Positions 1 to 9,910 of a DNA stretch of 60,605 nucleotides are shown here, piece after piece (position 1 is the first letter of the stretch; each line of letters starts with the position of its first letter). The stretch covers positions 1 through 60,605 of the forward strand of contig ONSF01000004.1 of the NCBI GenBank assembly GCA_900320425.1. The letters are read 5' to 3'. The notes under the pieces are model-generated. The model searched no databases. It had not been told where the DNA came from and worked only from the letters and a program-made list of their open reading frames with translations. This stretch comes from an uncultured Eubacteriales bacterium. Its GTDB lineage: Bacteria > Bacillota_I > Bacilli_A > RF39 > UBA660. Made by a program: the position numbers and the translations under genes.

Positions 1-1140
1 AAAGAAAAATCTTTCATTAAAAGATATAAATGGTTAAAGAAATTTAATGAATTAAGTAATAAATATAATATAAGACAAAACCATTATTTTTGGGAGTTTT
101 TACATAATCAATCTATAAAAACAAAATATTATTATAAAATATTATTTAAATGCAATTGTAATTCATTATATTTAATTTGCAATATAATTATTAGCATTGG
201 ACAACTTCTAATGAAATTAAGAAAAAAAATTATAAAAAAAGACATAACATGGGATTTATTGATAAAATATGCAATTAAACAAAAAAATATGAAAAATCCT
301 GATTTATCAATATCGGTTGTAGTTCCTAATTACAACTATGAAAAATTTTTATTACAAAGAATATATAGTATTATATCTCAAACTTATAAGATAAATGAAA
401 TAATAATTTTAGATGATTTATCAAAAGATAATAGTCGTGATTTAATTAATCAAATAGAAAATAAATTAGATAAATATATAAATATCAAAACAGTATTTAA
501 TGATAAAAATTCTGGATCGGCTTTTAAACAATGGAAAAAAGGATTTAATTTAGCAAATAGTGACTATGTTTGGATAGCAGAAGCGGATGATTATTGTGAT
601 AAAAATTTATTAAAAAATCTTATTTATCAGATAAAGAAAGAAAATGATGTTATTATATCTTATGCTGATACAGCTTTTATTAATGCAGAAGGAAGAATAA
701 TTGTAAAAAGTATTATTCCAGAAATTGATATAATGAAAACTGGACATTGGAATAATTCCTTTATTAATAATGGAGTAGAGGAGTATAAAAAATATGCATT
801 TTTAAATTGTACGATTGCTAATGTTTCTTCTTGTATTATTAAAAAAGGTAATTATGATAAAGAATTTGAATTATCTGGAAAATTGAAACAAGCGGGTGAT
901 TGGTTATTTTATGTAAATATAATGCAAAAAGGAAAAGTTGCATATACAAATAAAGTATTAAATTATTATAGATTACATGGAGATAATGTTAGTAGTAACT
1001 TTAATTATAATAAACATTTAGAAGAAATTAAATATATTCATGAATATTATCGTAATAATTATGGATTAACTAAATACCAAGAAGATGAAATACAAAAAAG
1101 ATATAAATTTTTAAAAGATGCTTGGAAAATCAACAAGTAA
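1..1140 (+). CDS. Family 2 glycosyltransferase. The frame is open from base 1, so the gene probably starts upstream of the window.
   Basis: GT2 motifs are present: ISVVVPNYN, ILDDLSKDNS, AEADDY. The ORF-track ATG at 211 has no Shine-Dalgarno. Frame 1 has no stop between 1 and 211. Confidence 0.75.
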   Translation, partial: KEKSFIKRYKWLKKFNELSNKYNIRQNHYFWEFLHNQSIKTKYYYKILFKCNCNSLYLICNIIISIGQLLMKLRKKIIKKDITWDLLIKYAIKQKNMKNPDLSISVVVPNYNYEKFLLQRIYSIISQTYKINEIIILDDLSKDNSRDLINQIENKLDKYINIKTVFNDKNSGSAFKQWKKGFNLANSDYVWIAEADDYCDKNLLKNLIYQIKKENDVIISYADTAFINAEGRIIVKSIIPEIDIMKTGHWNNSFINNGVEEYKKYAFLNCTIANVSSCIIKKGNYDKEFELSGKLKQAGDWLFYVNIMQKGKVAYTNKVLNYYRLHGDNVSSNFNYNKHLEEIKYIHEYYRNNYGLTKYQEDEIQKRYKFLKDAWKINK

Positions 1141-1157
1141 TCTTATAGGAGGCTAAT

Positions 1158-2684
1158 ATGAAAAAAAGTTTTATTAATAAAAGAATATTAATGGTGTTTG
1201 TTGTCTTTTTTGTTATAATATTGTTGCAAAATCATTTTTTGTGGTTGTTTCATGATGATTACGGATATGCTTCGTTAAGTTATTTAACATCATTTAAAGG
1301 TGCAAGAGGTTTAAATACAGGTATTTTAGATATTATTAATTTTTTAAGATTACATTATAATATTTGGGGTGGAAGAGTACTTTATTTCTTTATAGAAATA
1401 TTATTACTTAGAATTGATATATCTGCATATCGAATATTTCAAAGTATTATTACAGTTTTGATATTTTATATTATTTATAAAATTATTGCTAAAAAGTTCA
1501 AATTTAATAATTGGATGGTAGCAGCATTTTGTGTTCTATGTTATGGTGTATTTGAAATTAATGTTTTAAGAGGTGGAATATATTGGATAACTGCTTCTGT
1601 TTTATATTTTATTCCTCTTTTACCATTTTTATTATATGTATATTTATATGATGGAAAACATAAAAAAATAATTTGTGCAATATTAATTTTTATATCAACT
1701 TGGTCTCAAGAACAAATAAGTGCTTTGGCATTATCATATGTTTCTTTATATTTTATTTACAACTATTTTATTGAAAAGAAGAGAAATAAAACAGATATAA
1801 TAATGTTTATATTTGCTATACTTGGTTTTGCAATTTTAATGTTGGCACCCGGATCAAGAGTAAGAATGGGTACGACTAGTGATTTTTATAACTTATCTCT
1901 TCTTGGAAAAATAATGACAAATGTTCCCGTTATATTAACTAAAAATTTTGGTCAATCTACCAAAATATTTAGTTTATCTTTCTTTTTAACAATGGTTTAC
2001 ATTATATATGAATATCGTAAAATTGGAAAATATACAAGACTTGCAGATTTATCAATAATTTCTACCATTATCATTATTTTAGGAATGATTTTTAAATCGG
2101 AAGGATATTTTGCTTATTTATTATATTTTAGTGATAATAAAATATTTAAAATATTAATAATGATTTTATTTTTTATTCAATTTCTATTAATATTCATAAT
2201 GGTTGTTATGTATTTTTATAAAAAGAAGGATATTAATATAATTTATTTAATAATAGGTGCTTTGGCTTCTCAAATGGTAATGATTATGGCTCCTTATTTT
2301 CCAGATCGATCTGTAATTATGTTCGAGATTGTTGGCTTTTTATTAATGGCATATTGTTTTAGCGATATTCTAAAGAATAAGAAAATTAATATTTATTATA
2401 TTTTTATACCATTCGTTATTATTAGTTTGTTAAATTTTAGCAAGATTCTATATGGTTATTATAAAAATAATGATGAAAAGACTTATAATGATAAAATATT
2501 AATTGATGTATCAAAAAGAATAAAATTAGGTGAAGATATTAAATTTGTTAATTTAAAAAAACTAGAAGACTTAACTTATGGAATTGAGGAACCATATTTA
2601 GAAGATTTTAGTTATATAAAAATATATATGAAATATTATTATGATTTACCTAATGATATTGAATTTATATATGAGGAGGATTAG
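1158..2684 (+). CDS. Polytopic membrane protein, probably a GT-C type (GtrII/YfhO-like) glycosyltransferase working with the adjacent GtrB/GtrA-like pair.
   Basis: 508 aa with many hydrophobic helices. AGGAGG lies just upstream of the ATG. It is sandwiched between a GT2 gene and a GtrB-like gene. The function is inferred from context. Confidence 0.55.
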   Translation: MKKSFINKRILMVFVVFFVIILLQNHFLWLFHDDYGYASLSYLTSFKGARGLNTGILDIINFLRLHYNIWGGRVLYFFIEILLLRIDISAYRIFQSIITVLIFYIIYKIIAKKFKFNNWMVAAFCVLCYGVFEINVLRGGIYWITASVLYFIPLLPFLLYVYLYDGKHKKIICAILIFISTWSQEQISALALSYVSLYFIYNYFIEKKRNKTDIIMFIFAILGFAILMLAPGSRVRMGTTSDFYNLSLLGKIMTNVPVILTKNFGQSTKIFSLSFFLTMVYIIYEYRKIGKYTRLADLSIISTIIIILGMIFKSEGYFAYLLYFSDNKIFKILIMILFFIQFLLIFIMVVMYFYKKKDINIIYLIIGALASQMVMIMAPYFPDRSVIMFEIVGFLLMAYCFSDILKNKKINIYYIFIPFVIISLLNFSKILYGYYKNNDEKTYNDKILIDVSKRIKLGEDIKFVNLKKLEDLTYGIEEPYLEDFSYIKIYMKYYYDLPNDIEFIYEED

Positions 2685-2687
2685 TAT

Positions 2688-3644
2688 ATGAAAAAAGAAA
2701 TACTGTATATTGTAGTTCCTTGTTATAATGAAGAAGCAGTATTAGAAGAAACTACTAAACAATTAAAGAAAAAAATGGAATATCTAGTTAAAAATGGTTT
2801 AATTAGTGATGAAAGTCGGGTTATGTATGTAAATGATGGTTCAAATGATAAAACTTGGAAACTGATTGAAGATATTTCTAATAAAGAAAAATATTTCACT
2901 GGACTTTCTTTATCAAGAAATAGAGGACATCAAAATGCTTTGCTTGCTGGTCTTATGACTGCTAAAGAATATGCTGATATAATTATTAGTATGGATGCTG
3001 ATTTACAAGATGATATAAATGCAATTGATGAAATGTTAAAAAAATATTATGATGGTTCAGAAATTGTATATGGTGTTCGAAGTGCAAGAAAGAAAGATAC
3101 ATGGTTTAAAAGAACAACAGCAGAAAGTTTTTATAAATTCATGAGTATGATGGGAGTTGATATTGTCTTTAATCATGCAGATTATCGTTTAACTAGTAAA
3201 AATGTTTTAGAACATTTAGAAGAATTTAATGAAGTAAATTTGTTTTTAAGAGGAATATTTCCTTTAATAGGATATAAAACTGCTATTGTTTATTATGAAA
3301 GAAATGAAAGATTTGCAGGGGTTTCTAAGTATCCTCTTAAGAAAATGCTTAACTTTGCTTGGGATGGAATTACCTCCTTTAGTGTTAAACCCATACGGTT
3401 CATTTTGTCTTTTGGAATAGTATTTACAATTTTAAGTTTTATATCACTTATAGTATTTATTATTTTAAATTTAGTTAAGTTAAAAACTCTTTCAATCGGA
3501 ACATTGATAAGTCTTATATGCTTTTTATCAGGACTTCAAACTATATTTATTGGTATAATTGGAGAGTATATTGGTAAAACTTATAATGAAACAAAAAGAA
3601 GGCCGAGATTTATTATTAGTAAAAATTTGAATGAGGATAAATAA
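2688..3644 (+). CDS. Bactoprenol-sugar synthase type GT2 glycosyltransferase (GtrB/CsbB-like).
   Basis: Motifs YIVVPCYNEE, VNDGSNDKT, MDADLQDD. There are two C-terminal TM helices, as in GtrB/CsbB. A strong RBS GAGGAGG is present. Confidence 0.8.
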   Translation: MKKEILYIVVPCYNEEAVLEETTKQLKKKMEYLVKNGLISDESRVMYVNDGSNDKTWKLIEDISNKEKYFTGLSLSRNRGHQNALLAGLMTAKEYADIIISMDADLQDDINAIDEMLKKYYDGSEIVYGVRSARKKDTWFKRTTAESFYKFMSMMGVDIVFNHADYRLTSKNVLEHLEEFNEVNLFLRGIFPLIGYKTAIVYYERNERFAGVSKYPLKKMLNFAWDGITSFSVKPIRFILSFGIVFTILSFISLIVFIILNLVKLKTLSIGTLISLICFLSGLQTIFIGIIGEYIGKTYNETKRRPRFIISKNLNEDK

Positions 3645-3645
3645 T

Positions 3646-4059
3646 ATGAAAAATTGGAAACATTTATTTGCTCAGTTAGTTAAATTTGGTATTGTTGGAG
3701 TTTTAGCAACCTTAATTGATTGGGTTATATTTTATCTTTTAACTAATATTATAAATATTCATTATGGTATAGCTACCGCGATTAGTTTTTTAATTTCAAC
3801 AGTTTTTAATTACTATTTAAGTGTTAAGTATGTATTTGATGTTGATAGTAGTACAAGTAAAAAAAGAAACTTTGTTATATTCCTTATTTTTAGTATCATA
3901 GGACTTGGTTTAAATGAATTAATTTTATGGATTTGTATTGAGAAGATTCGCTTATATAATATGATTGGTAAAATAATAGCAACAGGACTTGTAATGATTT
4001 TTAATTTTATTACTAGAAAAATATTTTTAGAAAAAAGTATGAAAATAATAAAAAAATGA
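3646..4059 (+). CDS. GtrA family membrane protein (putative lipid-linked sugar flippase).
   Basis: Small four-TM protein with KFGIVGVLATLIDW and a C-terminal NFITRKIF typical of GtrA. The start is moved to the ATG preceded by GAGGA. Confidence 0.75.
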   Translation: MKNWKHLFAQLVKFGIVGVLATLIDWVIFYLLTNIINIHYGIATAISFLISTVFNYYLSVKYVFDVDSSTSKKRNFVIFLIFSIIGLGLNELILWICIEKIRLYNMIGKIIATGLVMIFNFITRKIFLEKSMKIIKK

Positions 4060-4682: not shown

Positions 4683-5123
4683 ATGTACGATTCAATTAAA
4701 TTAAAAAATCAACTATGTTTTCCAATATATCTTTGCTCTAAGGAAATAATTAGAAAATATTCGAAAGTTTTAGAAAAATTAAACTTAACATATACTCAAT
4801 ATATTGTTATGATGTATTTTTGGGAAGTTAAAACTTCTAATGTAAAGGATTTAGGAAAATGTTTACTACTTGATTCTAGTACTTTAACACCACTTTTAAA
4901 AAAATTAGAGAAAAAGGGTTTTATAGAAAGGAAAAAGAATCAAATTGATGAAAGAAATTTAGATTTATCTCTAACCAAACTTGGAGAATCATTAAAGCAA
5001 GATGCCTTAGATGTTCCAAAAGAAATAAGAAAATGTTTAAATTTAACCAATGATGAGACAACAATGTTGTACTCACTTCTTTATAAAATATTAAATAATA
5101 TAGAAAAGGAGAATGAATTATGA
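4683..5123 (+). CDS. MarR family regulator, OhrR-like (organic peroxide sensing).
   Basis: LKNQLCFPIY carries the N-terminal sensing Cys. LTYTQYIVMMYFWE and DSSTLTPLLKKLEKKGFIERK form the winged HTH. It is embedded in a thiol-redox operon. Confidence 0.75.
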   Translation: MYDSIKLKNQLCFPIYLCSKEIIRKYSKVLEKLNLTYTQYIVMMYFWEVKTSNVKDLGKCLLLDSSTLTPLLKKLEKKGFIERKKNQIDERNLDLSLTKLGESLKQDALDVPKEIRKCLNLTNDETTMLYSLLYKILNNIEKENEL

Positions 5124-5425
5124 TAAAAGAAATTAAAGAAAATGAATTTGAGGAATTAGTTTTAAAATCAAAAGAAAAAGTTATAGTAGATTTTTATGCA
5201 AATTGGTGTGGACCTTGTAAAATGTTAAGACCAATTTTAGAAGAAGTTGCCAAAGATGGAAAAATTAAAATTATGTCTATTGATGTTGATGAGGCTGAGT
5301 CTTTATCTCAAGAATACGGAATTATTTCAATTCCTTGTGTAATTATGTTTCAAGATGGTAAAGAAGTTACAAGAAGCATTGGATTAAAATCAAAAAATGA
5401 TTTAGAAAGTGTGTTTCAAATATAA
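5120..5425 (+). CDS. trxA: Thioredoxin.
   Basis: WCGPCK active site, 101 aa, RBS AAGGAG. Confidence 0.92.
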   Translation: MIKEIKENEFEELVLKSKEKVIVDFYANWCGPCKMLRPILEEVAKDGKIKIMSIDVDEAESLSQEYGIISIPCVIMFQDGKEVTRSIGLKSKNDLESVFQI

Positions 5426-6333
5426 TGTATGATATTATAATTGTTGGTGCAGGTCCTGCAGGACTTACTGCAGCTCTTTATGCAACACGTGCAAGAAAAA
5501 AAGTTTTGGTTCTTGAAGCACTAAGTTATGGAGGACAAATAATAAATACATTAGAAATTGATAATTACCCAGTTGCTCCACATATTTCAGGATTTGACTT
5601 TGCCGAAAAACTATATAATCAAGTTTTAGAACTTGGAGTAGATTTTAAATTTGAAAAGGTTATTGAAATAAAAAACAATAATAATTATAAAGAAGTAGTA
5701 ACTAAAGAGAATACTTATCAAGGAAAAACTCTAATTCTTGCAACAGGATCAGAAAATAGAAAATTAGGACTTGAAAAAGAACAAGATTTTGTAGGATGCG
5801 GAGTATCATATTGTGCAACATGTGATGGTGCTTTTTACAAAAATAAAGAAGTTGCTGTTGTTGGTGGTGGAAATACTGCGATTGAAGACGCTTTATATTT
5901 ATCAGATATTGCTAGTCGTGTTTATTTAATTCATAGAAGAGATCAGTTTAGAGCTGATAATGTTAGTATTCAAAAATTAAAAGATAAGAAAAATGTTGAA
6001 ATTCTTTATAACAATCGGGTAACCAAATTAATAGGTGATAGAAAATTAGAAGGAATTTTAGTTAGTGATAAAAACAATGTTGAAAAAGAAATTTCTATTT
6101 GTGGACTTTTTATTGCTGTTGGAAGAATACCTGAAAATGAAAATTTTAGAAAATTAATAGAACTAGATGATTCTGGATATATCGTAAGTAACGAACTTTG
6201 TCATACAAATGTTCCAGGTATTTTTGTTGCAGGAGATAATAGAGTAAAAGAATTAAGACAATTAGTAACTGCAACAAGTGATGGGGCAATTGCTGCAACC
6301 GAAGCAATTAAATATTTAAATAGTCTAAATTAA
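5425..6333 (+). CDS. trxB: Thioredoxin-disulfide reductase.
   Basis: GAGPAGLTAA FAD motif, CATCDG redox centre, GGGNTA NADPH motif. Confidence 0.92.
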   Translation: MYDIIIVGAGPAGLTAALYATRARKKVLVLEALSYGGQIINTLEIDNYPVAPHISGFDFAEKLYNQVLELGVDFKFEKVIEIKNNNNYKEVVTKENTYQGKTLILATGSENRKLGLEKEQDFVGCGVSYCATCDGAFYKNKEVAVVGGGNTAIEDALYLSDIASRVYLIHRRDQFRADNVSIQKLKDKKNVEILYNNRVTKLIGDRKLEGILVSDKNNVEKEISICGLFIAVGRIPENENFRKLIELDDSGYIVSNELCHTNVPGIFVAGDNRVKELRQLVTATSDGAIAATEAIKYLNSLN

Positions 6334-6884
6334 AAGTTTTTTCTTATTAAATATACGACTTTTCCAATAACATAATCTAAATTTGGAAGAGTCAACTCTT
6401 CTTTATCATTTTTAAGATGGTGATAACCATCTTTTTTTGTATATTTATATATTTTATAATCTAAATTATTTTTTAATAAAACAAACTTATTATTTAAAAA
6501 TGTTTTACTTTTTTCGATAATTAAGATATCTTGATAGAATATCCCATAGCTTTTTAAGGAACTATCAGAAATTTGCAACGCAACATAATGACTTAATGGA
6601 TTAAATAAATTATTGTCTATTTTTATTATTTTATCTTTATTTATGTGTGGAATTGAAAATACACCATCATACTCTATACTATCTTTTAAATAAGTTATTT
6701 GATGACGCTTTTCATCATATTTTAAATATCCTTTATCTTCTAGAATATTAAGATATTTATAAATTGTATTATATGATTTAAATGATGACATAATAAAAAT
6801 TTCTTGCAATGTCGGGTATTCTTTTTTTGCTTTAGAAAGATTTAACAGAAATTTAAAAAATAATGTTTGTTTTTTTGTTAGCAT
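6330..6884 (-). CDS. LexA-like repressor (winged-HTH N domain plus S24 peptidase-like C domain).
   Basis: The N-terminal PTLQEIFIMSSFKSYNTIYKYLNILEDKGYL resembles the LexA DNA-binding domain. The C domain has SDSS (GDSM-like Ser) and YKYTKKDG (VKRLKK-like Lys). No clear Ala-Gly cleavage site is present. Confidence 0.6.
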   Translation of the reverse strand: MLTKKQTLFFKFLLNLSKAKKEYPTLQEIFIMSSFKSYNTIYKYLNILEDKGYLKYDEKRHQITYLKDSIEYDGVFSIPHINKDKIIKIDNNLFNPLSHYVALQISDSSLKSYGIFYQDILIIEKSKTFLNNKFVLLKNNLDYKIYKYTKKDGYHHLKNDKEELTLPNLDYVIGKVVYLIRKNF

Positions 6885-6923
6885 ATTTCCTCCTTAAATC
6901 AGATTATTATATCATATATTAAT

Positions 6924-6949
6924 AAAAGGTGAAACGATTTCACCTTTTT
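6924..6949. promoter_or_regulatory. 11-bp-arm palindrome AAAAGGTGAAA-CGA-TTTCACCTTTT between divergent promoters. Candidate operator for the LexA-like repressor.
   Basis: The inverted repeat is perfect when read directly. On the minus strand it abuts a TGaTATAAT extended -10 (about 6906..6914) upstream of the LexA-like gene. Confidence 0.45.
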
Positions 6950-6999
6950 GTGTGTCTAAAACCATATAAAATATATAAAAAAATTTTTTTATTTAATTT

Positions 7000-7028
7000 T
7001 TGGAATATAACGTAATTTCTATTATATT
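7000..7028 (+). promoter_or_regulatory. Candidate sigma-A promoter of the bacteriocin exporter operon.
   Basis: TTGGAA (7000..7005), 17-nt spacer, TATATT (7023..7028). GGAGG RBS at 7035..7039. Confidence 0.5.
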
Positions 7029-7047
7029 ATAAGTGGAGGTTTTAGTG

Positions 7048-9105
7048 ATGAAAATTTTATATGTTAACCAAACTGATTTAAAAGATTGTGGGGTTTCTTG
7101 TTTGATTTCAATTATAAGATATTATGGAGGATATGTAAGACGTGAATATTTAAGAGAAATTACTAATACAACAGAAAATGGGGTATCGGCTTATTCATTA
7201 GTTGCGGCTGCACCACTTCTTGGGTTTGAAGCGTGTGCTATAAAAGGAAAAATTGATGATATTAAAGACCAATTGCCGCTTATTGCACATTGTATAATAA
7301 ATAAAAATTTAGGACATTTTGTAGTTATATCTAGTATAAATTCGAAATATATAACCGTAATGGATCCTAACTCGGGATTTCGAAAATATACCTATTCAGA
7401 GTGGAATAATATTACTACAAATACTTACATACTATATAAACCTAAAAATACTATTTTAAAACAAGACAAAGAAAAAAGTTTTTTTCAAATTTTCTATCCT
7501 ATTGTAAAAAAATACAAGACAACTTTATTTCTTATCCTTGTGTTTTCTCTTATTTATACAGTTTCTAATATTTTCTTATCTTATGGATTTGGATTCTTCT
7601 TAAATTTAGAAAAAAATAAATTTAAAAATATTTTCTTTTTGTTAAGTCTTATTGTTTTATTAAAAGAAACTACTAATCTTTATCGAGGAAATCTAATGAA
7701 TTATTTAAATCATAAATTAGACAAAATGTTAATTACTGAAGTATATAATCACATTATAAAACTTCCATATTCCTATATAAAAAATCGTATGAAAGGAGAT
7801 ATTATTAAAAGGCTTGAAGATGTATCTAAAATAAGGGATACAATTAGTAAAGTTTTTGTTAGTGTATCTATTGATATTTTATTTGTTTTGATATTATTTC
7901 TTGCTATGTTAAAACTTCATAAAAAACTTTCATTATATGTTTTAGTTATTACCTTACTTTACGGTTTTGTTGTTTCTTTTTATCACAAAAAAATATCTAA
8001 AGGTATTTTTAAAGCAAAAGAAAAAGAAGTTATGGTTCAAAATCATATTATTGAATCATTAAGTTCTATTGATACTATTAAAGGAATGGGAATTGAAAAA
8101 TATCTATCTAATAAATTAGAAACAAAGTATTCTAGTTTGCAAGAGAAGAGTTTTCTTTTAAATAAAACGTATAATAAAGAAATATTTTTAAAAGAACTTA
8201 TTTATGGAATAGGATCACTGTTTATTATTTATATAGGTTGTCTTGAGGTAAAAAATAATGTATTTTCTGTAAGCCATTTAATTGTTTTTTATACTTTGAT
8301 GATGTATTATTTTACCCCTTTAGTAAGTATTTTTGATTTAGAAATTTTACTTAAGGATGCTAGTATTTCTTTTTTAAGAATTAAAGAATTACTAAATATT
8401 AAAGAAGAATATTTATATCCCAATAAAAAATCTTGTTATAAACCATTAAAAGGAAATATTAAAGTTTCTAATTTAAATTATTCGTATAATGGAATTGACT
8501 CTATTTTAAAATGTGACAAATTAAAAATAAAAAAAGGAGAAAGGGTACTATTATATGGAACAAGTGGTGGAGGAAAAAGTTCTTTAATGAAAATACTTAT
8601 TGGCTATTTTAATAACTATAAGGGAAGTATTTTAATAGATGATAAGGAAGTATATGATTATAATTTAGAAGATATTAGAAAAAAAATTACTTATGTATCT
8701 CAAGATGAGATTTTATATACTGATACAATATACAATAATATTGTTTTAAATAATGAAATAGATTATGATAAATATTTGGAAATTCTTGAGTTAACAGGAG
8801 TAAATTTAATAACTAAAAGAAGTATTCTTCATAGTGATATGATGATTGAAAATAATGCTAGTAATTTATCCGGTGGTGAAAGACAAAGAATTCTTTTAGC
8901 AAGAAGTTTAGTTAAAAATAGTGATATTTATATTTTTGATGAATCATTTTCAGCAATTGATATAAAAAATGAAAGAATACTTTTAAAAAATATATTTGAA
9001 TATTTAAAAAATAAAACAGTGATTGTGATAAGTCATAGATTTAATAATCGTGATTTATATCAAAAGTTTATTTTAATAGAAAAAGGTATGGTATATGAAT
9101 ATTGA
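7048..9105 (+). CDS. Peptidase C39 domain-containing ABC transporter (double-glycine leader bacteriocin processing and export; ComA/LagD/SunT type).
   Basis: N-terminal QTDLKDCGVSCL carries the C39 catalytic Cys, and HFVVI the His. Six TM segments follow. Walker A GTSGGGKSS, signature LSGGERQR, Walker B IYIFDES. Confidence 0.9.
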   Translation: MKILYVNQTDLKDCGVSCLISIIRYYGGYVRREYLREITNTTENGVSAYSLVAAAPLLGFEACAIKGKIDDIKDQLPLIAHCIINKNLGHFVVISSINSKYITVMDPNSGFRKYTYSEWNNITTNTYILYKPKNTILKQDKEKSFFQIFYPIVKKYKTTLFLILVFSLIYTVSNIFLSYGFGFFLNLEKNKFKNIFFLLSLIVLLKETTNLYRGNLMNYLNHKLDKMLITEVYNHIIKLPYSYIKNRMKGDIIKRLEDVSKIRDTISKVFVSVSIDILFVLILFLAMLKLHKKLSLYVLVITLLYGFVVSFYHKKISKGIFKAKEKEVMVQNHIIESLSSIDTIKGMGIEKYLSNKLETKYSSLQEKSFLLNKTYNKEIFLKELIYGIGSLFIIYIGCLEVKNNVFSVSHLIVFYTLMMYYFTPLVSIFDLEILLKDASISFLRIKELLNIKEEYLYPNKKSCYKPLKGNIKVSNLNYSYNGIDSILKCDKLKIKKGERVLLYGTSGGGKSSLMKILIGYFNNYKGSILIDDKEVYDYNLEDIRKKITYVSQDEILYTDTIYNNIVLNNEIDYDKYLEILELTGVNLITKRSILHSDMMIENNASNLSGGERQRILLARSLVKNSDIYIFDESFSAIDIKNERILLKNIFEYLKNKTVIVISHRFNNRDLYQKFILIEKGMVYEY

Positions 9106-9214
9106 TATATTTTATAAAGTAGAGTGTAATATAGTAAAAATAGAAATTTTATATGTATTGGTTATTTTAGGAATAATTGTTTTAATAATAATAAATTATT
9201 GTGAATTTATTTAA
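9095..9214 (+). CDS. 39-aa single-TM peptide (MNIDIFYKVECNIVKIEILYVLVILGIIVLIIINYCEFI). Candidate immunity or accessory peptide.
   Basis: The ATG overlaps the last codons of the exporter gene. It has a hydrophobic core and sits directly upstream of the two GG peptides. No homology evidence. Confidence 0.3.
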   Translation: MNIDIFYKVECNIVKIEILYVLVILGIIVLIIINYCEFI

Positions 9215-9226
9215 GAAAGGAGTAAT

Positions 9227-9367
9227 ATGACAAAATTAGAAATAGTCGATTTAAAAAAAATAACTGGTGGAGGATTAACTGGTTGGGGGATTGCTGCAAT
9301 TGGAGCATTTCTAACTTTTGTATCAGGTTTTATTGATGGGTTTGCAAGACCATTTAAATGTAATTAA
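9227..9367 (+). CDS. Double-glycine leader bacteriocin precursor A (46 aa): MTKLEIVDLKKITGG-GLTGWGIAAIGAFLTFVSGFIDGFARPFKCN.
   Basis: RBS AAAGGAG lies 7 nt upstream. The leader DLKKITGG fits the (E/D)LxxIxGG consensus. The mature part is Gly-rich and hydrophobic with GxxxG. It lies immediately downstream of the C39 ABC exporter. Confidence 0.75.
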   Translation: MTKLEIVDLKKITGGGLTGWGIAAIGAFLTFVSGFIDGFARPFKCN

Positions 9368-9381
9368 GAAAGGAGGTATTT

Positions 9382-9546
9382 ATGGAATTAACAAATAAAG
9401 AATTAAAAGAAATTATTGGAGGTGCAAGTTTAACAGGAGCATTTTTGAGTTCTATTAAAGGATGCATAAGTGTTGTCTTTAATCTTGGACAAGCTGTAGG
9501 TGGTGCAATTAGAAGAATTGCAACTGGTAATTTATGTAGTTTTTAA
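9382..9546 (+). CDS. Double-glycine leader bacteriocin precursor B (54 aa): MELTNKELKEIIGG-ASLTGAFLSSIKGCISVVFNLGQAVGGAIRRIATGNLCSF.
   Basis: RBS AGGAGG is present. The leader ELKEIIGG matches the GG-leader consensus exactly. The mature part is cationic and amphipathic, with GxxxG and two Cys. Confidence 0.78.
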   Translation: MELTNKELKEIIGGASLTGAFLSSIKGCISVVFNLGQAVGGAIRRIATGNLCSF

Positions 9547-9650
9547 ATAAAATTTGTCCCAAATCTTTTTAAAGCAATTTAAAATCTAATAAAAATGTGT
9601 ATCTTTTTTAAAAAAAACATATAATATTTTAGAAAAAGTGTCGATTTCTG

Positions 9651-9679
9651 TTGAATTTTTAAATTTAGTTTGATATAAT
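9651..9679 (+). promoter_or_regulatory. Candidate sigma-A promoter for rpsU.
   Basis: TTGAAT, 17-nt spacer, TATAAT, with a TG extended -10 (TGATATAAT). Confidence 0.6.
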
Positions 9680-9715
9680 CTATTTGATTTCTAAATGAAG
9701 GGAGGGAAGTATTGA

Positions 9716-9910
9716 ATGACACATGTTGCTGTTAGAAATGGTAATCTAGATGGGGCTTTAAGGAAGTTTAAACAAAAAGTTGCAAGAGATGGAATCCCTT
9801 CTGAATTTAAAAAAAGAGAAGCTTATGATAAACCTGGTGTAAAAAGACGTGAAGCTAAAAAAGCCGGTATTAAAAATGCACGTAAGCGTGAAAGAAATAA
9901 TAGAGACTAA
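9716..9910 (+). CDS. rpsU: 30S ribosomal protein S21.
   Basis: 64 aa and basic. LRKFKQKVARDGI and KPGVKRREAKK are typical of S21. RBS GGGAGGGA. Confidence 0.93.
   Translation: MTHVAVRNGNLDGALRKFKQKVARDGIPSEFKKREAYDKPGVKRREAKKAGIKNARKRERNNRD

What the first reader, a model, noticed from the sequence alone, without database searches (positions are those of the whole stretch)
6885..9546. Compact double-glycine bacteriocin locus with two unannotated precursor peptides
The 690-aa ABC transporter (7048..9105) carries an N-terminal C39 peptidase domain (DCGVSCL). Two short ORFs follow it, both below the ORF-track cutoff and each with a strong RBS.
- 9227..9367 encodes MTKLEIVDLKKITGG|GLTGWGIAAIGAFLTFVSGFIDGFARPFKCN.
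- 9382..9546 encodes MELTNKELKEIIGG|ASLTGAFLSSIKGCISVVFNLGQAVGGAIRRIATGNLCSF.
Both leaders fit the (E/D)LxxIxGG consensus cleaved by C39 exporters. Both mature parts are small, Gly-rich and amphipathic, with GxxxG motifs. That pattern is typical of class IIb two-peptide bacteriocins. I do not recognise either mature sequence as a named bacteriocin.
The locus is unusually minimal. It has no HlyD/LcnD-type accessory gene, no histidine kinase or response regulator, and no conventional immunity gene. The only candidate for immunity is a 39-aa single-TM ORF (9095..9214) that overlaps the exporter stop.
Basis: partly seen in the sequence, partly recalled or inferred. Interest (0 to 1): 0.7.

Follow-up and report, generated by a model that had tools for sequence, protein, structure and literature searches.

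The report
Conserved two-peptide export cassette, reduced copy
A peptide-cleaving exporter gene followed by two small secreted-peptide genes is real and looks like a two-peptide bacteriocin system, but it belongs to a large, uncharacterised, vertically inherited family of gut and rumen Bacilli, and this copy has lost two of the family's usual accessory genes.

Summary
A full C39-peptidase ABC exporter (7048..9105) is followed by two ORFs with canonical double-glycine leaders, which I call pepA (9227..9367) and pepB (9382..9546).

Neither ORF is a chance reading frame. The same ABC–pepA–pepB core occurs in 78 distinct loci from gut, rumen and digester metagenomes. pepA has 665 homologous 90%-identity clusters.

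The full ancestral cassette has five genes:
- the ABC exporter;
- a ~140-aa accessory protein (a TM helix plus a small beta-barrel resembling a membrane-fusion-protein domain);
- pepA;
- pepB;
- a ~55-aa TM protein (orf4).

It usually sits directly upstream of rpsU-yqeY. Peptide divergence tracks housekeeping-gene divergence, and I found no plasmid or viral copies, so descent looks vertical.

The window holds a reduced derivative. orf4, the better immunity candidate, has been deleted. Twelve of 50 fully assessable loci are equally minimal.

Each mature peptide has an invariant GxxxG motif and, almost always, exactly one Cys, which is invariant and lies near the C-terminus. That suggests a disulfide-linked heterodimer.

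My best reading is a class IIb-like two-peptide membrane-active system, a new variant. Antimicrobial activity is untested, and a non-antagonistic role is a live rival.

The parts
6330..6884 (-). Divergently transcribed LexA-like repressor (HTH plus S24 peptidase domain). It neighbours the cassette only in the window's subclade.
   Evidence: Pfam Peptidase_S24 at 26 bits and LexA_DNA_bind at 23.5 bits; TIGR00498 at 48.9 bits, below the 111-bit cut-off. Ser and Lys align to E. coli LexA S119 and K156, but no Ala-Gly cleavage site is evident. It holds the same position in L018, L019, L024, L025 and L044.
6924..6948 (.). Perfect palindrome AAAAGGTGAAAcgaTTTCACCTTTT, a probable operator of the LexA-like protein. 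It overlaps the -35 of that gene's own promoter.
   Evidence: the only zero-mismatch site in the window; minus-strand promoter TTCACC-16-TATAAT at 6933..6906. Palindromes of different sequence sit at the equivalent place in L018, L024 and L025. Control of the ABC operon by this site is not shown.
7000..7031 (+). Promoter-like site for the cassette (TTGGAA-17-TATATT). The TATATTATA block just before the RBS is conserved in five of the six loci compared.
   Evidence: The block is conserved in window, L018, L019, L024 and L025 and is not recognisable in L044. This is a consensus match only.
7048..9105 (+). Peptidase-containing ABC transporter (PCAT): C39 protease, six-TM domain and NBD.
   Evidence: TIGR01193 full-length alignment at 345 bits, below the 524-bit cut-off; NF045998 at 298 bits. 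(PCAT1 at 1e-106, ComA at 2e-75). (about 80 relatives at 54-63% identity in Erysipelotrichaceae/Bacilli MAGs).
9095..9214 (+). 39-aa single-TM ORF, the retained N-terminal stub of the family's ~140-aa accessory protein.
   Evidence: Alignment A3. An open 39-44-aa ORF with conserved M(N/S)ID.FYK.. plus a TM helix is present in window, L018, L029 and L031; dN/dS 0.28-0.84, inconclusive. Full-length accessory model: TM helix plus beta-barrel, pLDDT 77. Weak recurring Foldseek hits to membrane-fusion-protein barrels. 10 of 23 match NF045999.
9227..9367 (+). pepA precursor: 15-aa GG leader (9227..9271) and 31-aa mature peptide (9272..9364), with GxxxG (GFIDG) and the C-terminal RPFKCN.
   Evidence: 665 homologous clusters. 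41 of 67 family members hit TIGR03949 at E<=0.01; the window copy scores 15.5 bits against a 21.5-bit cut-off. 116 of 118 independently retrieved homologues keep the C-terminal Cys, and the other two keep it before a longer tail.
9382..9546 (+). pepB precursor: 14-aa GG leader (9382..9423) and 40-aa mature peptide (9424..9543), with GxxxG (GQAVG), IRR and a Cys three residues from the C-terminus.
   Evidence: TIGR01847 at 17.6 bits, above the 15.7-bit cut-off. 88 representatives at 50% identity, nearly all 50-57 aa. 82 of 85 have the C-terminal Cys. Only 13 of 59 touch TIGR03949.
9547..9650 (+). Remnant of the deleted orf4 (a ~55-aa TM gene in relatives). Its ATG is followed directly by TAG, and about 110 bp are missing.
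   Evidence: DNA alignments A5 and A10. orf4 family alignment A4. orf4 is present in 50 of 64 loci. No significant RNA structure or terminator lies here.
9651..9910 (+). rpsU with its own conserved promoter, the usual downstream neighbour of the cassette.
   Evidence: TTGAAT-17-TATAAT with TG.. rpsU lies within 1.5 kb in 30 of 43 loci.

Best explanation
The locus is a PCAT-dependent two-peptide export cassette of the class IIb bacteriocin type.

**Proposed mechanism**
1. The operon is transcribed from a promoter just upstream of the ABC gene. No terminator precedes rpsU, so read-through into rpsU is possible.
2. pepA and pepB are made as precursors.
3. The N-terminal C39 domain of the transporter (Cys/His/Asp present) cleaves each precursor after its GG.
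4. The ABC core exports a ~31-aa and a ~40-aa hydrophobic, cationic peptide.
5. Outside the cell, the two helices pair through their invariant GxxxG motifs. They are probably locked by a disulfide between the single invariant C-terminal Cys of each. The pair then acts on a membrane, most likely that of related competitors.

**Family context**
- A small membrane-anchored beta-barrel accessory protein assists export in the ancestral form.
- A ~55-aa TM protein (orf4) is the likely self-protection factor.
- The window's copy is a reduced but still selected version, with the accessory cut down to its TM stub and orf4 deleted.

**Shown:** gene content, motifs, family-wide conservation, synteny, and the reduction events.
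**Inferred:** cleavage, export, pairing, the disulfide, and antimicrobial action.
For: - **Exporter.** PCAT domain architecture and catalytic residues are intact.
- **Leaders.** Both peptides have canonical GG leaders, conserved across 67 and 59 sequences. TIGR01847 is passed by pepB.
- **Similarity to known class IIb models.** It recurs across pepA: TIGR03949 in 41 of 67 and lactococcin G-beta in 36 of 67. NCBI already names some homologues class IIb bacteriocins.
- **Obligate pairing.** pepA and pepB are always adjacent. The ABC gene is directly upstream in 57 of 61 loci.
- **Motifs.** Each peptide has one invariant GxxxG. Mature net charge is +1 to +3 for almost all pepA and +2 to +6 for pepB, with GRAVY 0.85 and 0.93.
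- **Cysteines.** Exactly one Cys occurs in 58 of 59 mature pepA and 41 of 42 mature pepB. It is also retained in independently retrieved sets.
- **Selection.** dN/dS against the closest relatives is 0.15-0.30.
- **Accessory protein.** A TM helix plus a beta-barrel, with recurring weak matches to MacA, BesA, Spr0693 and AcrA barrels.
- **orf4.** It overlaps the pepB stop, the usual position of an immunity gene.
Against: - No activity, transcription or peptide data exist.
- The window peptides fall below the curated cut-offs of every mature-peptide family: TIGR03949 at 15.5 vs 21.5 bits, NF038034 at 23.1 vs 37, PF10439 at 20.1 vs 27.1.
- The only immunity candidate is absent here and in 14 of 64 loci, while the peptides stay intact. 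That is awkward for a self-toxic product.
- The cassette behaves like a vertically inherited core locus fixed beside rpsU. It was not found on plasmids or viral contigs. This is atypical for bacteriocin loci, which are usually patchy and mobile (my own knowledge).
- The structural similarity of the accessory protein to membrane fusion proteins is not statistically significant (E 0.05-0.1).
- The disulfide is inference only. AlphaFold2 on a natural pepA-pepB fusion was uninformative (pLDDT 57).
Confidence: 0.55

Rival explanations
1. The peptides are exported and processed in the same way, but they are not weapons. They are a lineage-wide, self-directed or signalling heterodimer, for example an autocrine membrane or envelope factor or a cell-cell cue. 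That would explain why the cassette is kept as a core chromosomal locus and why an immunity gene is dispensable.
For: - Peptide identity tracks YqeY identity (Spearman 0.63 and 0.74), down to about 47% YqeY identity.
- The cassette holds a fixed position upstream of rpsU in 30 of 43 loci.
- No plasmid or viral copies were found.
- The mature C-terminal parts are at least as conserved as the leaders.
- orf4 and the accessory gene have been lost repeatedly while pepA, pepB and the ABC gene stay intact. Twelve of 50 loci have neither.
- No terminator lies before rpsU.
Against: - No sensor kinase, response regulator or other receptor gene is linked to the cassette in any locus inspected.
- The peptides are long, hydrophobic and rich in GxxxG motifs, like pore-forming class IIb peptides and unlike known GG-leader pheromones (my own knowledge).
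- orf4 is still kept in 50 of 64 loci.
Confidence: 0.3
2. The window's copy is a decaying relic. After losing the accessory domain and orf4, the remaining genes are non-functional or on the way out.
For: - Two of the five family genes are truncated or deleted here.
- Loss of the accessory gene and loss of orf4 are associated across loci (Fisher p = 0.0008, not corrected for phylogeny), consistent with stepwise reduction.
Against: - The ABC gene, pepA and pepB are intact with good RBSs.
- dN/dS is 0.29-0.30 even against L029. L029 carries orf4 only as a pseudogene and has the accessory reduced to the same TM stub.
- The same minimal three-gene state recurs in 12 of 50 loci across divergent lineages.
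- Identical copies occur on 10 contigs from several samples.
Confidence: 0.08
3. The two short ORFs are chance reading frames in AT-rich DNA downstream of a general ABC exporter.
For: The genome is 24.5% GC and short ORFs abound.
Against: - Homologous ORFs with the same leaders, lengths and motifs occur in 78 distinct loci, and pepA alone has hundreds of protein clusters.
- Both are under purifying selection.
Confidence: 0.01

Closest known systems
Class IIb two-peptide bacteriocins of the lactobin A / cerein 7B / ABP-118 type (NCBIfam TIGR03949)
   Same: - Two adjacent GG-leader precursor genes.
- A dedicated C39 ABC exporter.
- Small, Gly-rich, cationic, hydrophobic mature peptides with GxxxG motifs and a Cys close to the C-terminus.
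- Some pepA homologues pass the TIGR03949 cut-off and are annotated as members.
   Different: - The window pepA is below the cut-off, and pepB is mostly unrecognised.
- Known members, as I recall, carry two Cys per peptide forming an intramolecular bridge. Here each peptide has exactly one.
- The mature C-terminal motifs (DGFxRPLKCN and GxxxGxxIRR...C) matched no relevant text in the searchable literature; the one hit was an unrelated housefly paper.
- The family is chromosomal and vertically inherited rather than patchy.
Lactococcin G / enterocin 1071 (NF038034, NF038035)
   Same: Weak recurring profile similarity of pepA to the beta peptide (36 of 67 at E<=0.01; window 23.1 bits). It covers the leader and the first helix, including an F-x-x-G segment.
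   Different: - All scores are below the 37-bit cut-off.
- Those peptides lack Cys (my own knowledge).
- Their loci carry a ~110-aa immunity gene.
PCAT1 of Clostridium thermocellum and ComA of Streptococcus (solved peptidase-containing ABC transporters)
   Same: Full-length homology (E 1e-106 and 2e-75) with the same C39-TMD-NBD architecture.
   Different: - Only about 30% identity.
- The protein is below the curated TIGR01193 cut-off (345 vs 524 bits).
- It partners with a ~140-aa accessory protein rather than a ~450-aa ComB/LcnD-type protein or none.
Mycoplasma 'Mbov_0121 family' C39 ABC transporter (NF045998) with 'MAG1140 family' small protein (NF045999)
   Same: - The window ABC scores 298 bits on NF045998.
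- 10 of 23 accessory proteins of this family match NF045999 end to end (best E 1.3e-5), and no other family recurs.
- This suggests a shared exporter-plus-mini-accessory module in Mollicutes and their Bacilli relatives.
   Different: - All scores are below the curated cut-offs (500 and 35 bits).
- No function is published for the Mycoplasma proteins.
- I could not inspect Mycoplasma loci for pepA/pepB-like genes.
HlyD/MacA/AcrA-type membrane fusion proteins (bacteriocin accessory proteins LcnD/ComB)
   Same: - Position directly after the ABC gene.
- An N-terminal TM anchor.
- The predicted extracytoplasmic beta-barrel superposes on MFP barrel domains (TM-score normalised to the query 0.35-0.40, rmsd 3.3-4.6 Å over about 80 residues).
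   Different: - Only about 140 aa, with no alpha-hairpin or lipoyl domain.
- No Pfam HlyD hit.
- Foldseek E-values are not significant.
- In the window only the TM stub remains.

Membership tests
Peptidase-containing ABC transporter (PCAT / AMS exporter) | N-terminal C39 peptidase domain with catalytic Cys, His and Asp | tested here: met
   PF03412 at 95.5 bits against a 22-bit cut-off. DCG, GHF and MDP are readable in the translation.
Peptidase-containing ABC transporter (PCAT / AMS exporter) | ABC exporter TMD plus NBD with Walker A, Walker B and signature motifs | tested here: met
   PF00664 at 107.7 bits and PF00005 at 92.8 bits. GTSGGGKSS, LSGGERQR and IYIFDE are in the sequence. PCAT1 at 1e-106.
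Peptidase-containing ABC transporter (PCAT / AMS exporter) | Passes the curated TIGR01193 (bacteriocin_ABC) cut-off | tested here: not met
   345.5 bits against a 523.85-bit cut-off, although the alignment is full length. The protein is a divergent member of the architecture, not of that curated subfamily.
Double-glycine leader peptides (TIGR01847) | Leader of about 15 aa ending in GG, with hydrophobic residues at -4, -7 and -12 and an acidic residue at -8 | tested here: met
   pepB scores 17.6 bits against a 15.7-bit cut-off. pepA fits the positions by eye but gave no TIGR01847 hit.
Class IIb two-peptide bacteriocins | Two different precursor genes adjacent in one operon | tested here: met
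   pepA and pepB are 14 bp apart. They are adjacent in all 78 distinct loci that carry both peptides. The mature parts are not homologous to each other.
Class IIb two-peptide bacteriocins | GxxxG-type helix-helix motifs in both peptides | tested here: met
   Invariant G..DG in pepA and G...G in pepB.
Class IIb two-peptide bacteriocins | Cognate immunity gene next to the peptide genes | tested here: not met
   No such gene is in the window. The family's candidate, orf4, is deleted here. orf4 matches no known immunity family.
Class IIb two-peptide bacteriocins | Antimicrobial activity that needs both peptides in about equal amounts | not testable with these tools
   This needs synthesis or expression and killing assays.
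Lactobin A / cerein 7B family (TIGR03949) | Score at or above the curated cut-off of 21.5 bits | tested here: not met
   Window pepA 15.5 bits and pepB 14.3 bits. Relatives L026 and L027 pepA score 22.9 and 23.0 bits and pass. 41 of 67 pepA reach E<=0.01.
Lactococcin G-beta / enterocin 1071B family (NF038034) | Score at or above the curated cut-off of 37 bits | tested here: not met
   Window pepA scores 23.1 bits.
HlyD/LcnD-type accessory (membrane fusion) proteins | TM anchor plus barrel, lipoyl and alpha-hairpin domains, with a Pfam HlyD hit | tested here: not met
   No Pfam hit. The model shows only a TM helix and one small barrel. Fold matches to MFP barrels are weak. The window has only the 39-aa TM stub.
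LexA (TIGR00498) | Passes the curated cut-off, has the Ser-Lys dyad and an Ala-Gly cleavage site | tested here: inconclusive
   48.9 bits against a 110.95-bit cut-off. Ser and Lys align to S119 and K156, but no Ala-Gly is evident.

The most novel reading that the evidence does not exclude
pepA and pepB form an obligate, disulfide-linked heterodimer, with one invariant Cys each. The heterodimer is exported by a vertically inherited core-genome PCAT cassette shared by a whole lineage of low-GC gut and rumen Bacilli, with a related exporter-plus-mini-accessory module in Mycoplasma. Its function is not interbacterial killing but a conserved physiological one, such as self-directed membrane or envelope action or signalling. 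This would explain why the immunity-like orf4 and the accessory protein can be lost without loss of the peptides.
Probability: 0.2. Interest if true: 0.8.

Novelty: new variant of a known kind. Interest (0 to 1): 0.5.

Why it matters
If the best reading holds, this is a large untapped family of two-peptide bacteriocin-like products from uncultured gut and rumen Bacilli. pepA has hundreds of 90%-identity clusters.

It also has a feature I could not find described for class IIb systems: one invariant Cys per peptide, which implies a covalent heterodimer.

The family offers a natural series of reduced cassettes, with and without the mini accessory protein and with and without orf4. These could show what a PCAT minimally needs to export its substrates and what really confers self-protection.

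Its core-genome, vertically inherited behaviour and the possible Mycoplasma link raise a further question. Some 'bacteriocin' cassettes may be housekeeping peptide-export systems instead.

Tried and rejected
- **GTDB representative genomes.** The scan with the transporter found only relatives at 28% identity or less, because the back-translated patterns were specific to the window protein.
- **Accessory-protein homologues.** The word-index search with the accessory alignment returned only 10 proteins and no named ones.
- **Rfam.** Nothing was found in the window.
- **AlphaFold2 on the natural pepA-pepB fusion P0272.** The model showed two helices at pLDDT 57. That is useless for judging Cys proximity.
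- **Distant dN/dS.** Synonymous sites are saturated in these AT-rich genomes, so only the closest pairs are quoted.
- **Glycocin-like S-glycosylation, or PedC-type disulfide help from the upstream GT2/GtrA and thioredoxin genes.** Rejected because those neighbours are not conserved beside the cassette in other loci.
- **AgrD-like thiolactone.** Rejected because the Cys is only 1-3 residues from the C-terminus and there is no AgrB.
- **SOS or LexA control of the cassette.** The palindrome overlaps the regulator's own -35, no second strong site lies near the ABC promoter or elsewhere in the window, and the regulator is linked only in one subclade.
- **Mobility.** No hits in IMG/VR or PLSDB.
- **Literature.** Searches for the peptide motifs, for Mycoplasma C39 systems and for intermolecular-disulfide two-peptide bacteriocins found nothing relevant.


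Full report
**1. The observation**

The window (24.5% GC) carries the following genes on the + strand:
- a 685-aa ORF at 7048..9105 (690 aa from the upstream GTG at 7033);
- a 39-aa ORF at 9095..9214, overlapping the stop of the 685-aa ORF;
- a 46-aa ORF at 9227..9367;
- a 54-aa ORF at 9382..9546;
- rpsU at 9716..9910.

The large protein has Pfam Peptidase_C39, ABC_membrane and ABC_tran domains, all well above threshold. Its closest solved relatives are PCAT1 (E 1e-106) and ComA. The catalytic Cys (DCG), His (GHF) and Asp (MDP) and the ATPase motifs are all readable in the translation.

The two short ORFs begin with MTKLEIVDLKKITGG and MELTNKELKEIIGG. Both have hydrophobic residues at -4, -7 and -12 and an acidic residue at -8. 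Each is preceded by an AGGAG-type RBS.

**2. The ORFs are real genes of a large family**

A protein search with the transporter found about 80 relatives at 54-63% identity and further ones down to 36%. All come from metagenomes or MAGs that the sources name Erysipelotrichaceae or Bacilli bacterium.

I fetched the DNA around eight of these relatives; one returned gene calls without DNA. All eight loci showed the same order: ABC, a small protein, a 44-49-aa ORF and a 54-57-aa ORF. Most also had a 52-65-aa ORF, and rpsU-yqeY usually followed.

The short ORFs align well.
- **pepA** has the consensus M..L...ELKKI.GG|..S.W......I.AGITF.IGVIDGF.RPLKCN.
- **pepB** has the consensus M..L...EL..I.GG|.SISGTLIN.......I......GR.LGSAIRRI.....C...

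A profile search with pepA found 665 clusters (at 90% identity) with E<=0.001, almost all 45-47 aa long. A full scan of 1.84 billion representatives with the window pepB found 88 families at 50% identity, almost all 50-57 aa.

A pattern scan of metagenome contigs added 80 loci from human gut, rumen, digesters and sludge. One caveat applies: that scan used the pepA C-terminal motif as its pattern. The invariance of that motif in those loci is therefore partly by construction. The transporter-derived loci and the profile search show the same motif independently.

For the window against its nearest relatives, dN/dS is 0.19 and 0.15 (L018) and 0.30 and 0.29 (L029) for pepA and pepB. More distant pairs are saturated at synonymous sites.

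**3. The full cassette and what the window has lost**

Across 78 distinct loci that carry both pepA and pepB:

| Feature | Count |
|---|---|
| C39-ABC gene directly upstream | 57 of 61 with enough flank |
| Accessory gene of about 130-160 aa between ABC and pepA | 33 of 61 |
| orf4 (48-65 aa) overlapping the pepB stop | 50 of 64 |
| rpsU within 1.5 kb downstream | 30 of 43 |

The accessory protein has an N-terminal TM helix followed by a beta-rich domain.
- An AlphaFold2 model from a nine-sequence alignment (pLDDT 77) shows a long TM helix and a small barrel.
- Foldseek against the PDB gives no significant hit. The list is nevertheless populated by the beta-barrel domains of the membrane fusion proteins MacA, BesA, Spr0693, AcrA, ZneB and MexA. 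TM-scores normalised to the query are 0.34-0.40, with rmsd 3.3-4.8 Å over about 80 residues.
- Ten of 23 accessory proteins match NCBIfam NF045999 ('MAG1140 family', Mycoplasma) end to end, with best E 1.3e-5. No other family recurs.
- The transporter also scores 298 bits on the Mycoplasma model NF045998.

The window's 39-aa ORF aligns to the N-terminal cytoplasmic and TM part of this accessory protein and stops where the barrel would begin. The same stub is kept as an open 39-44-aa ORF in L018, L029 and L031.

orf4 has a basic N-terminus, one TM helix and a conserved G.Y.GTF(L/I)R..Y motif. It matches no Pfam or NCBIfam family.
- In the window its ATG is followed directly by TAG, and about 110 bp of its body are missing.
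- In L029 the region is still there, but as a pseudogene.

Of the 50 loci where both genes could be scored, 24 have both, 13 have only orf4, 12 have neither (the window and L029 among them) and 1 has only the accessory gene. The association gives Fisher p = 0.0008, without correction for shared ancestry. The 'unusually minimal' locus is thus one end of a reduction series, and that end state is itself recurrent.

**4. Inheritance**

- Pairwise identity of the neighbouring housekeeping protein YqeY correlates with identity of pepA (Spearman 0.63) and pepB (0.74). The pairs are not independent, so this is descriptive. YqeY identity to the window falls to 46-47% in loci that still carry the cassette in the same place.
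- No pepA relative was found on IMG/VR viral contigs.
- Neither peptide was found in PLSDB plasmids.
- The rest of the window is ordinary chromosome: glycosyltransferases, trxA/trxB, RNase HII, era, recO, alaS and P-type ATPases.

The cassette therefore looks like an old, vertically transmitted chromosomal locus. A few loci sit elsewhere, for example L028 near ftsA/ftsZ.

**5. Features of the mature peptides**

| | pepA (window) | pepB (window) |
|---|---|---|
| Leader | 15 aa | 14 aa |
| Mature length | 31 aa | 40 aa |
| pI | 8.2 | 9.7 |
| GRAVY | 0.85 | 0.93 |

- Each family has one invariant GxxxG: G(V/I/L)(I/L)DG in pepA and G(R/Q)x(L/F)G in pepB.
- Each has one invariant Cys close to the C-terminus.
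- Among parsed mature peptides, 58 of 59 pepA and 41 of 42 pepB contain exactly one Cys.
- In the independently retrieved sets, 116 of 118 pepA and 82 of 85 pepB have the C-terminal Cys. Most of the apparent exceptions simply have longer tails after it.
- The window pepB has an extra Cys at mature position 16.

Profile comparison shows that pepA and pepB resemble each other only in the leader and the first few mature residues.

One invariant Cys in each of two obligately paired, exported peptides is most simply explained by an intermolecular disulfide. This is inference. I found no report of such a two-peptide bacteriocin and no relevant text matching the motifs; the one hit was an unrelated housefly paper.

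**6. Regulation**

A 184-aa LexA-like protein (HTH plus S24) is divergently transcribed upstream in the window and in L018, L019, L024, L025 and L044, but not in more distant loci.
- Its Ser and Lys align with the LexA catalytic dyad, but no Ala-Gly site is evident.
- A perfect 11+11 palindrome at 6924..6948 overlaps the -35 of its own promoter.
- Equivalent palindromes with different sequences occur in relatives.
- No second good site exists in the window.

The data support autoregulation. Control of the cassette by this protein is not shown.

No terminator-like structure separates pepB from rpsU, which has its own strongly conserved promoter. Read-through into rpsU is therefore possible.

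**7. Interpretation**

The supported steps are these: a PCAT, two bona fide GG-leader substrates, obligate pairing, purifying selection, and a family-level accessory protein and small TM protein.

By analogy with PCAT1, ComA and class IIb systems (established knowledge), the precursors should be cleaved after GG and exported. The two helices should then associate through their GxxxG motifs.

Whether the product is a bacteriocin cannot be decided here.
- **For:** the peptide chemistry, the recurring weak profile hits to TIGR03949 and lactococcin G-beta, NCBI's own annotation of some homologues, and an immunity-like gene in the usual position.
- **Against:** the window peptides are below all curated mature-peptide cut-offs. 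The immunity-like gene is repeatedly dispensable. The inheritance pattern is that of a core gene set.

I put the class IIb-like antimicrobial reading at about 0.55. A non-antagonistic exported heterodimer gets about 0.3, and a decaying relic about 0.08.

**8. Novelty**

The kind of system is known. The family is uncharacterised, and it differs in several ways:
- one Cys per peptide;
- the mini accessory protein with a possible Mycoplasma counterpart;
- the natural reduction series;
- the core-like chromosomal fixation.

I rate it a new variant of a known kind, with moderate interest.

Noticed in passing
P0272 (102-aa protein from the representatives search): A called ORF in which a pepA homologue and a pepB homologue are fused in one reading frame, each with its own GG site. 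It is either a natural fusion or a lost stop codon. If real, it is independent support for their functional coupling.
   Followed up: partly
L032:837-971: One locus has an extra 44-aa GG-leader peptide without Cys between pepA and pepB, so some cassettes encode three peptides.
   Followed up: no
window 9612-9640: A ~25-nt element, AAAAACATATAATATTTTAGAAAAA, lies just upstream of the rpsU promoter. It is almost invariant in window, L018, L019, L024 and L029, while the flanking DNA diverges. Its function is unknown; it may be a second promoter or a regulatory site.
   Followed up: no
window 6924-6948: A perfect 11+11 palindrome overlaps the -35 of the LexA-like gene's promoter. Palindromes of different sequence hold the same position in L018, L024 and L025, which suggests co-evolving operator-repressor pairs.
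   Followed up: partly
L019:8017-9165 and L025:6989-7852: An IS605 OrfB/TnpB (Cas12f-like) gene is inserted between rpsU and yqeY in L019. A radical-SAM gene lies on the opposite strand between orf4 and rpsU in L025.
   Followed up: no
window 5120-6333: The trxA-trxB pair lies just upstream, and the thioredoxin has a weak precomputed PedC-like Pfam hit. That is tempting given the peptide Cys residues. However, these neighbours are not conserved beside the cassette in other loci, so the link is probably coincidental.
   Followed up: partly
window 211-4059: A GT2, DUF6056, GT2 and GtrA block, probably for cell-surface polysaccharide or teichoic-acid glycosylation, lies upstream. L025 also has glycosyltransferases upstream, but other loci do not.
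   Followed up: no
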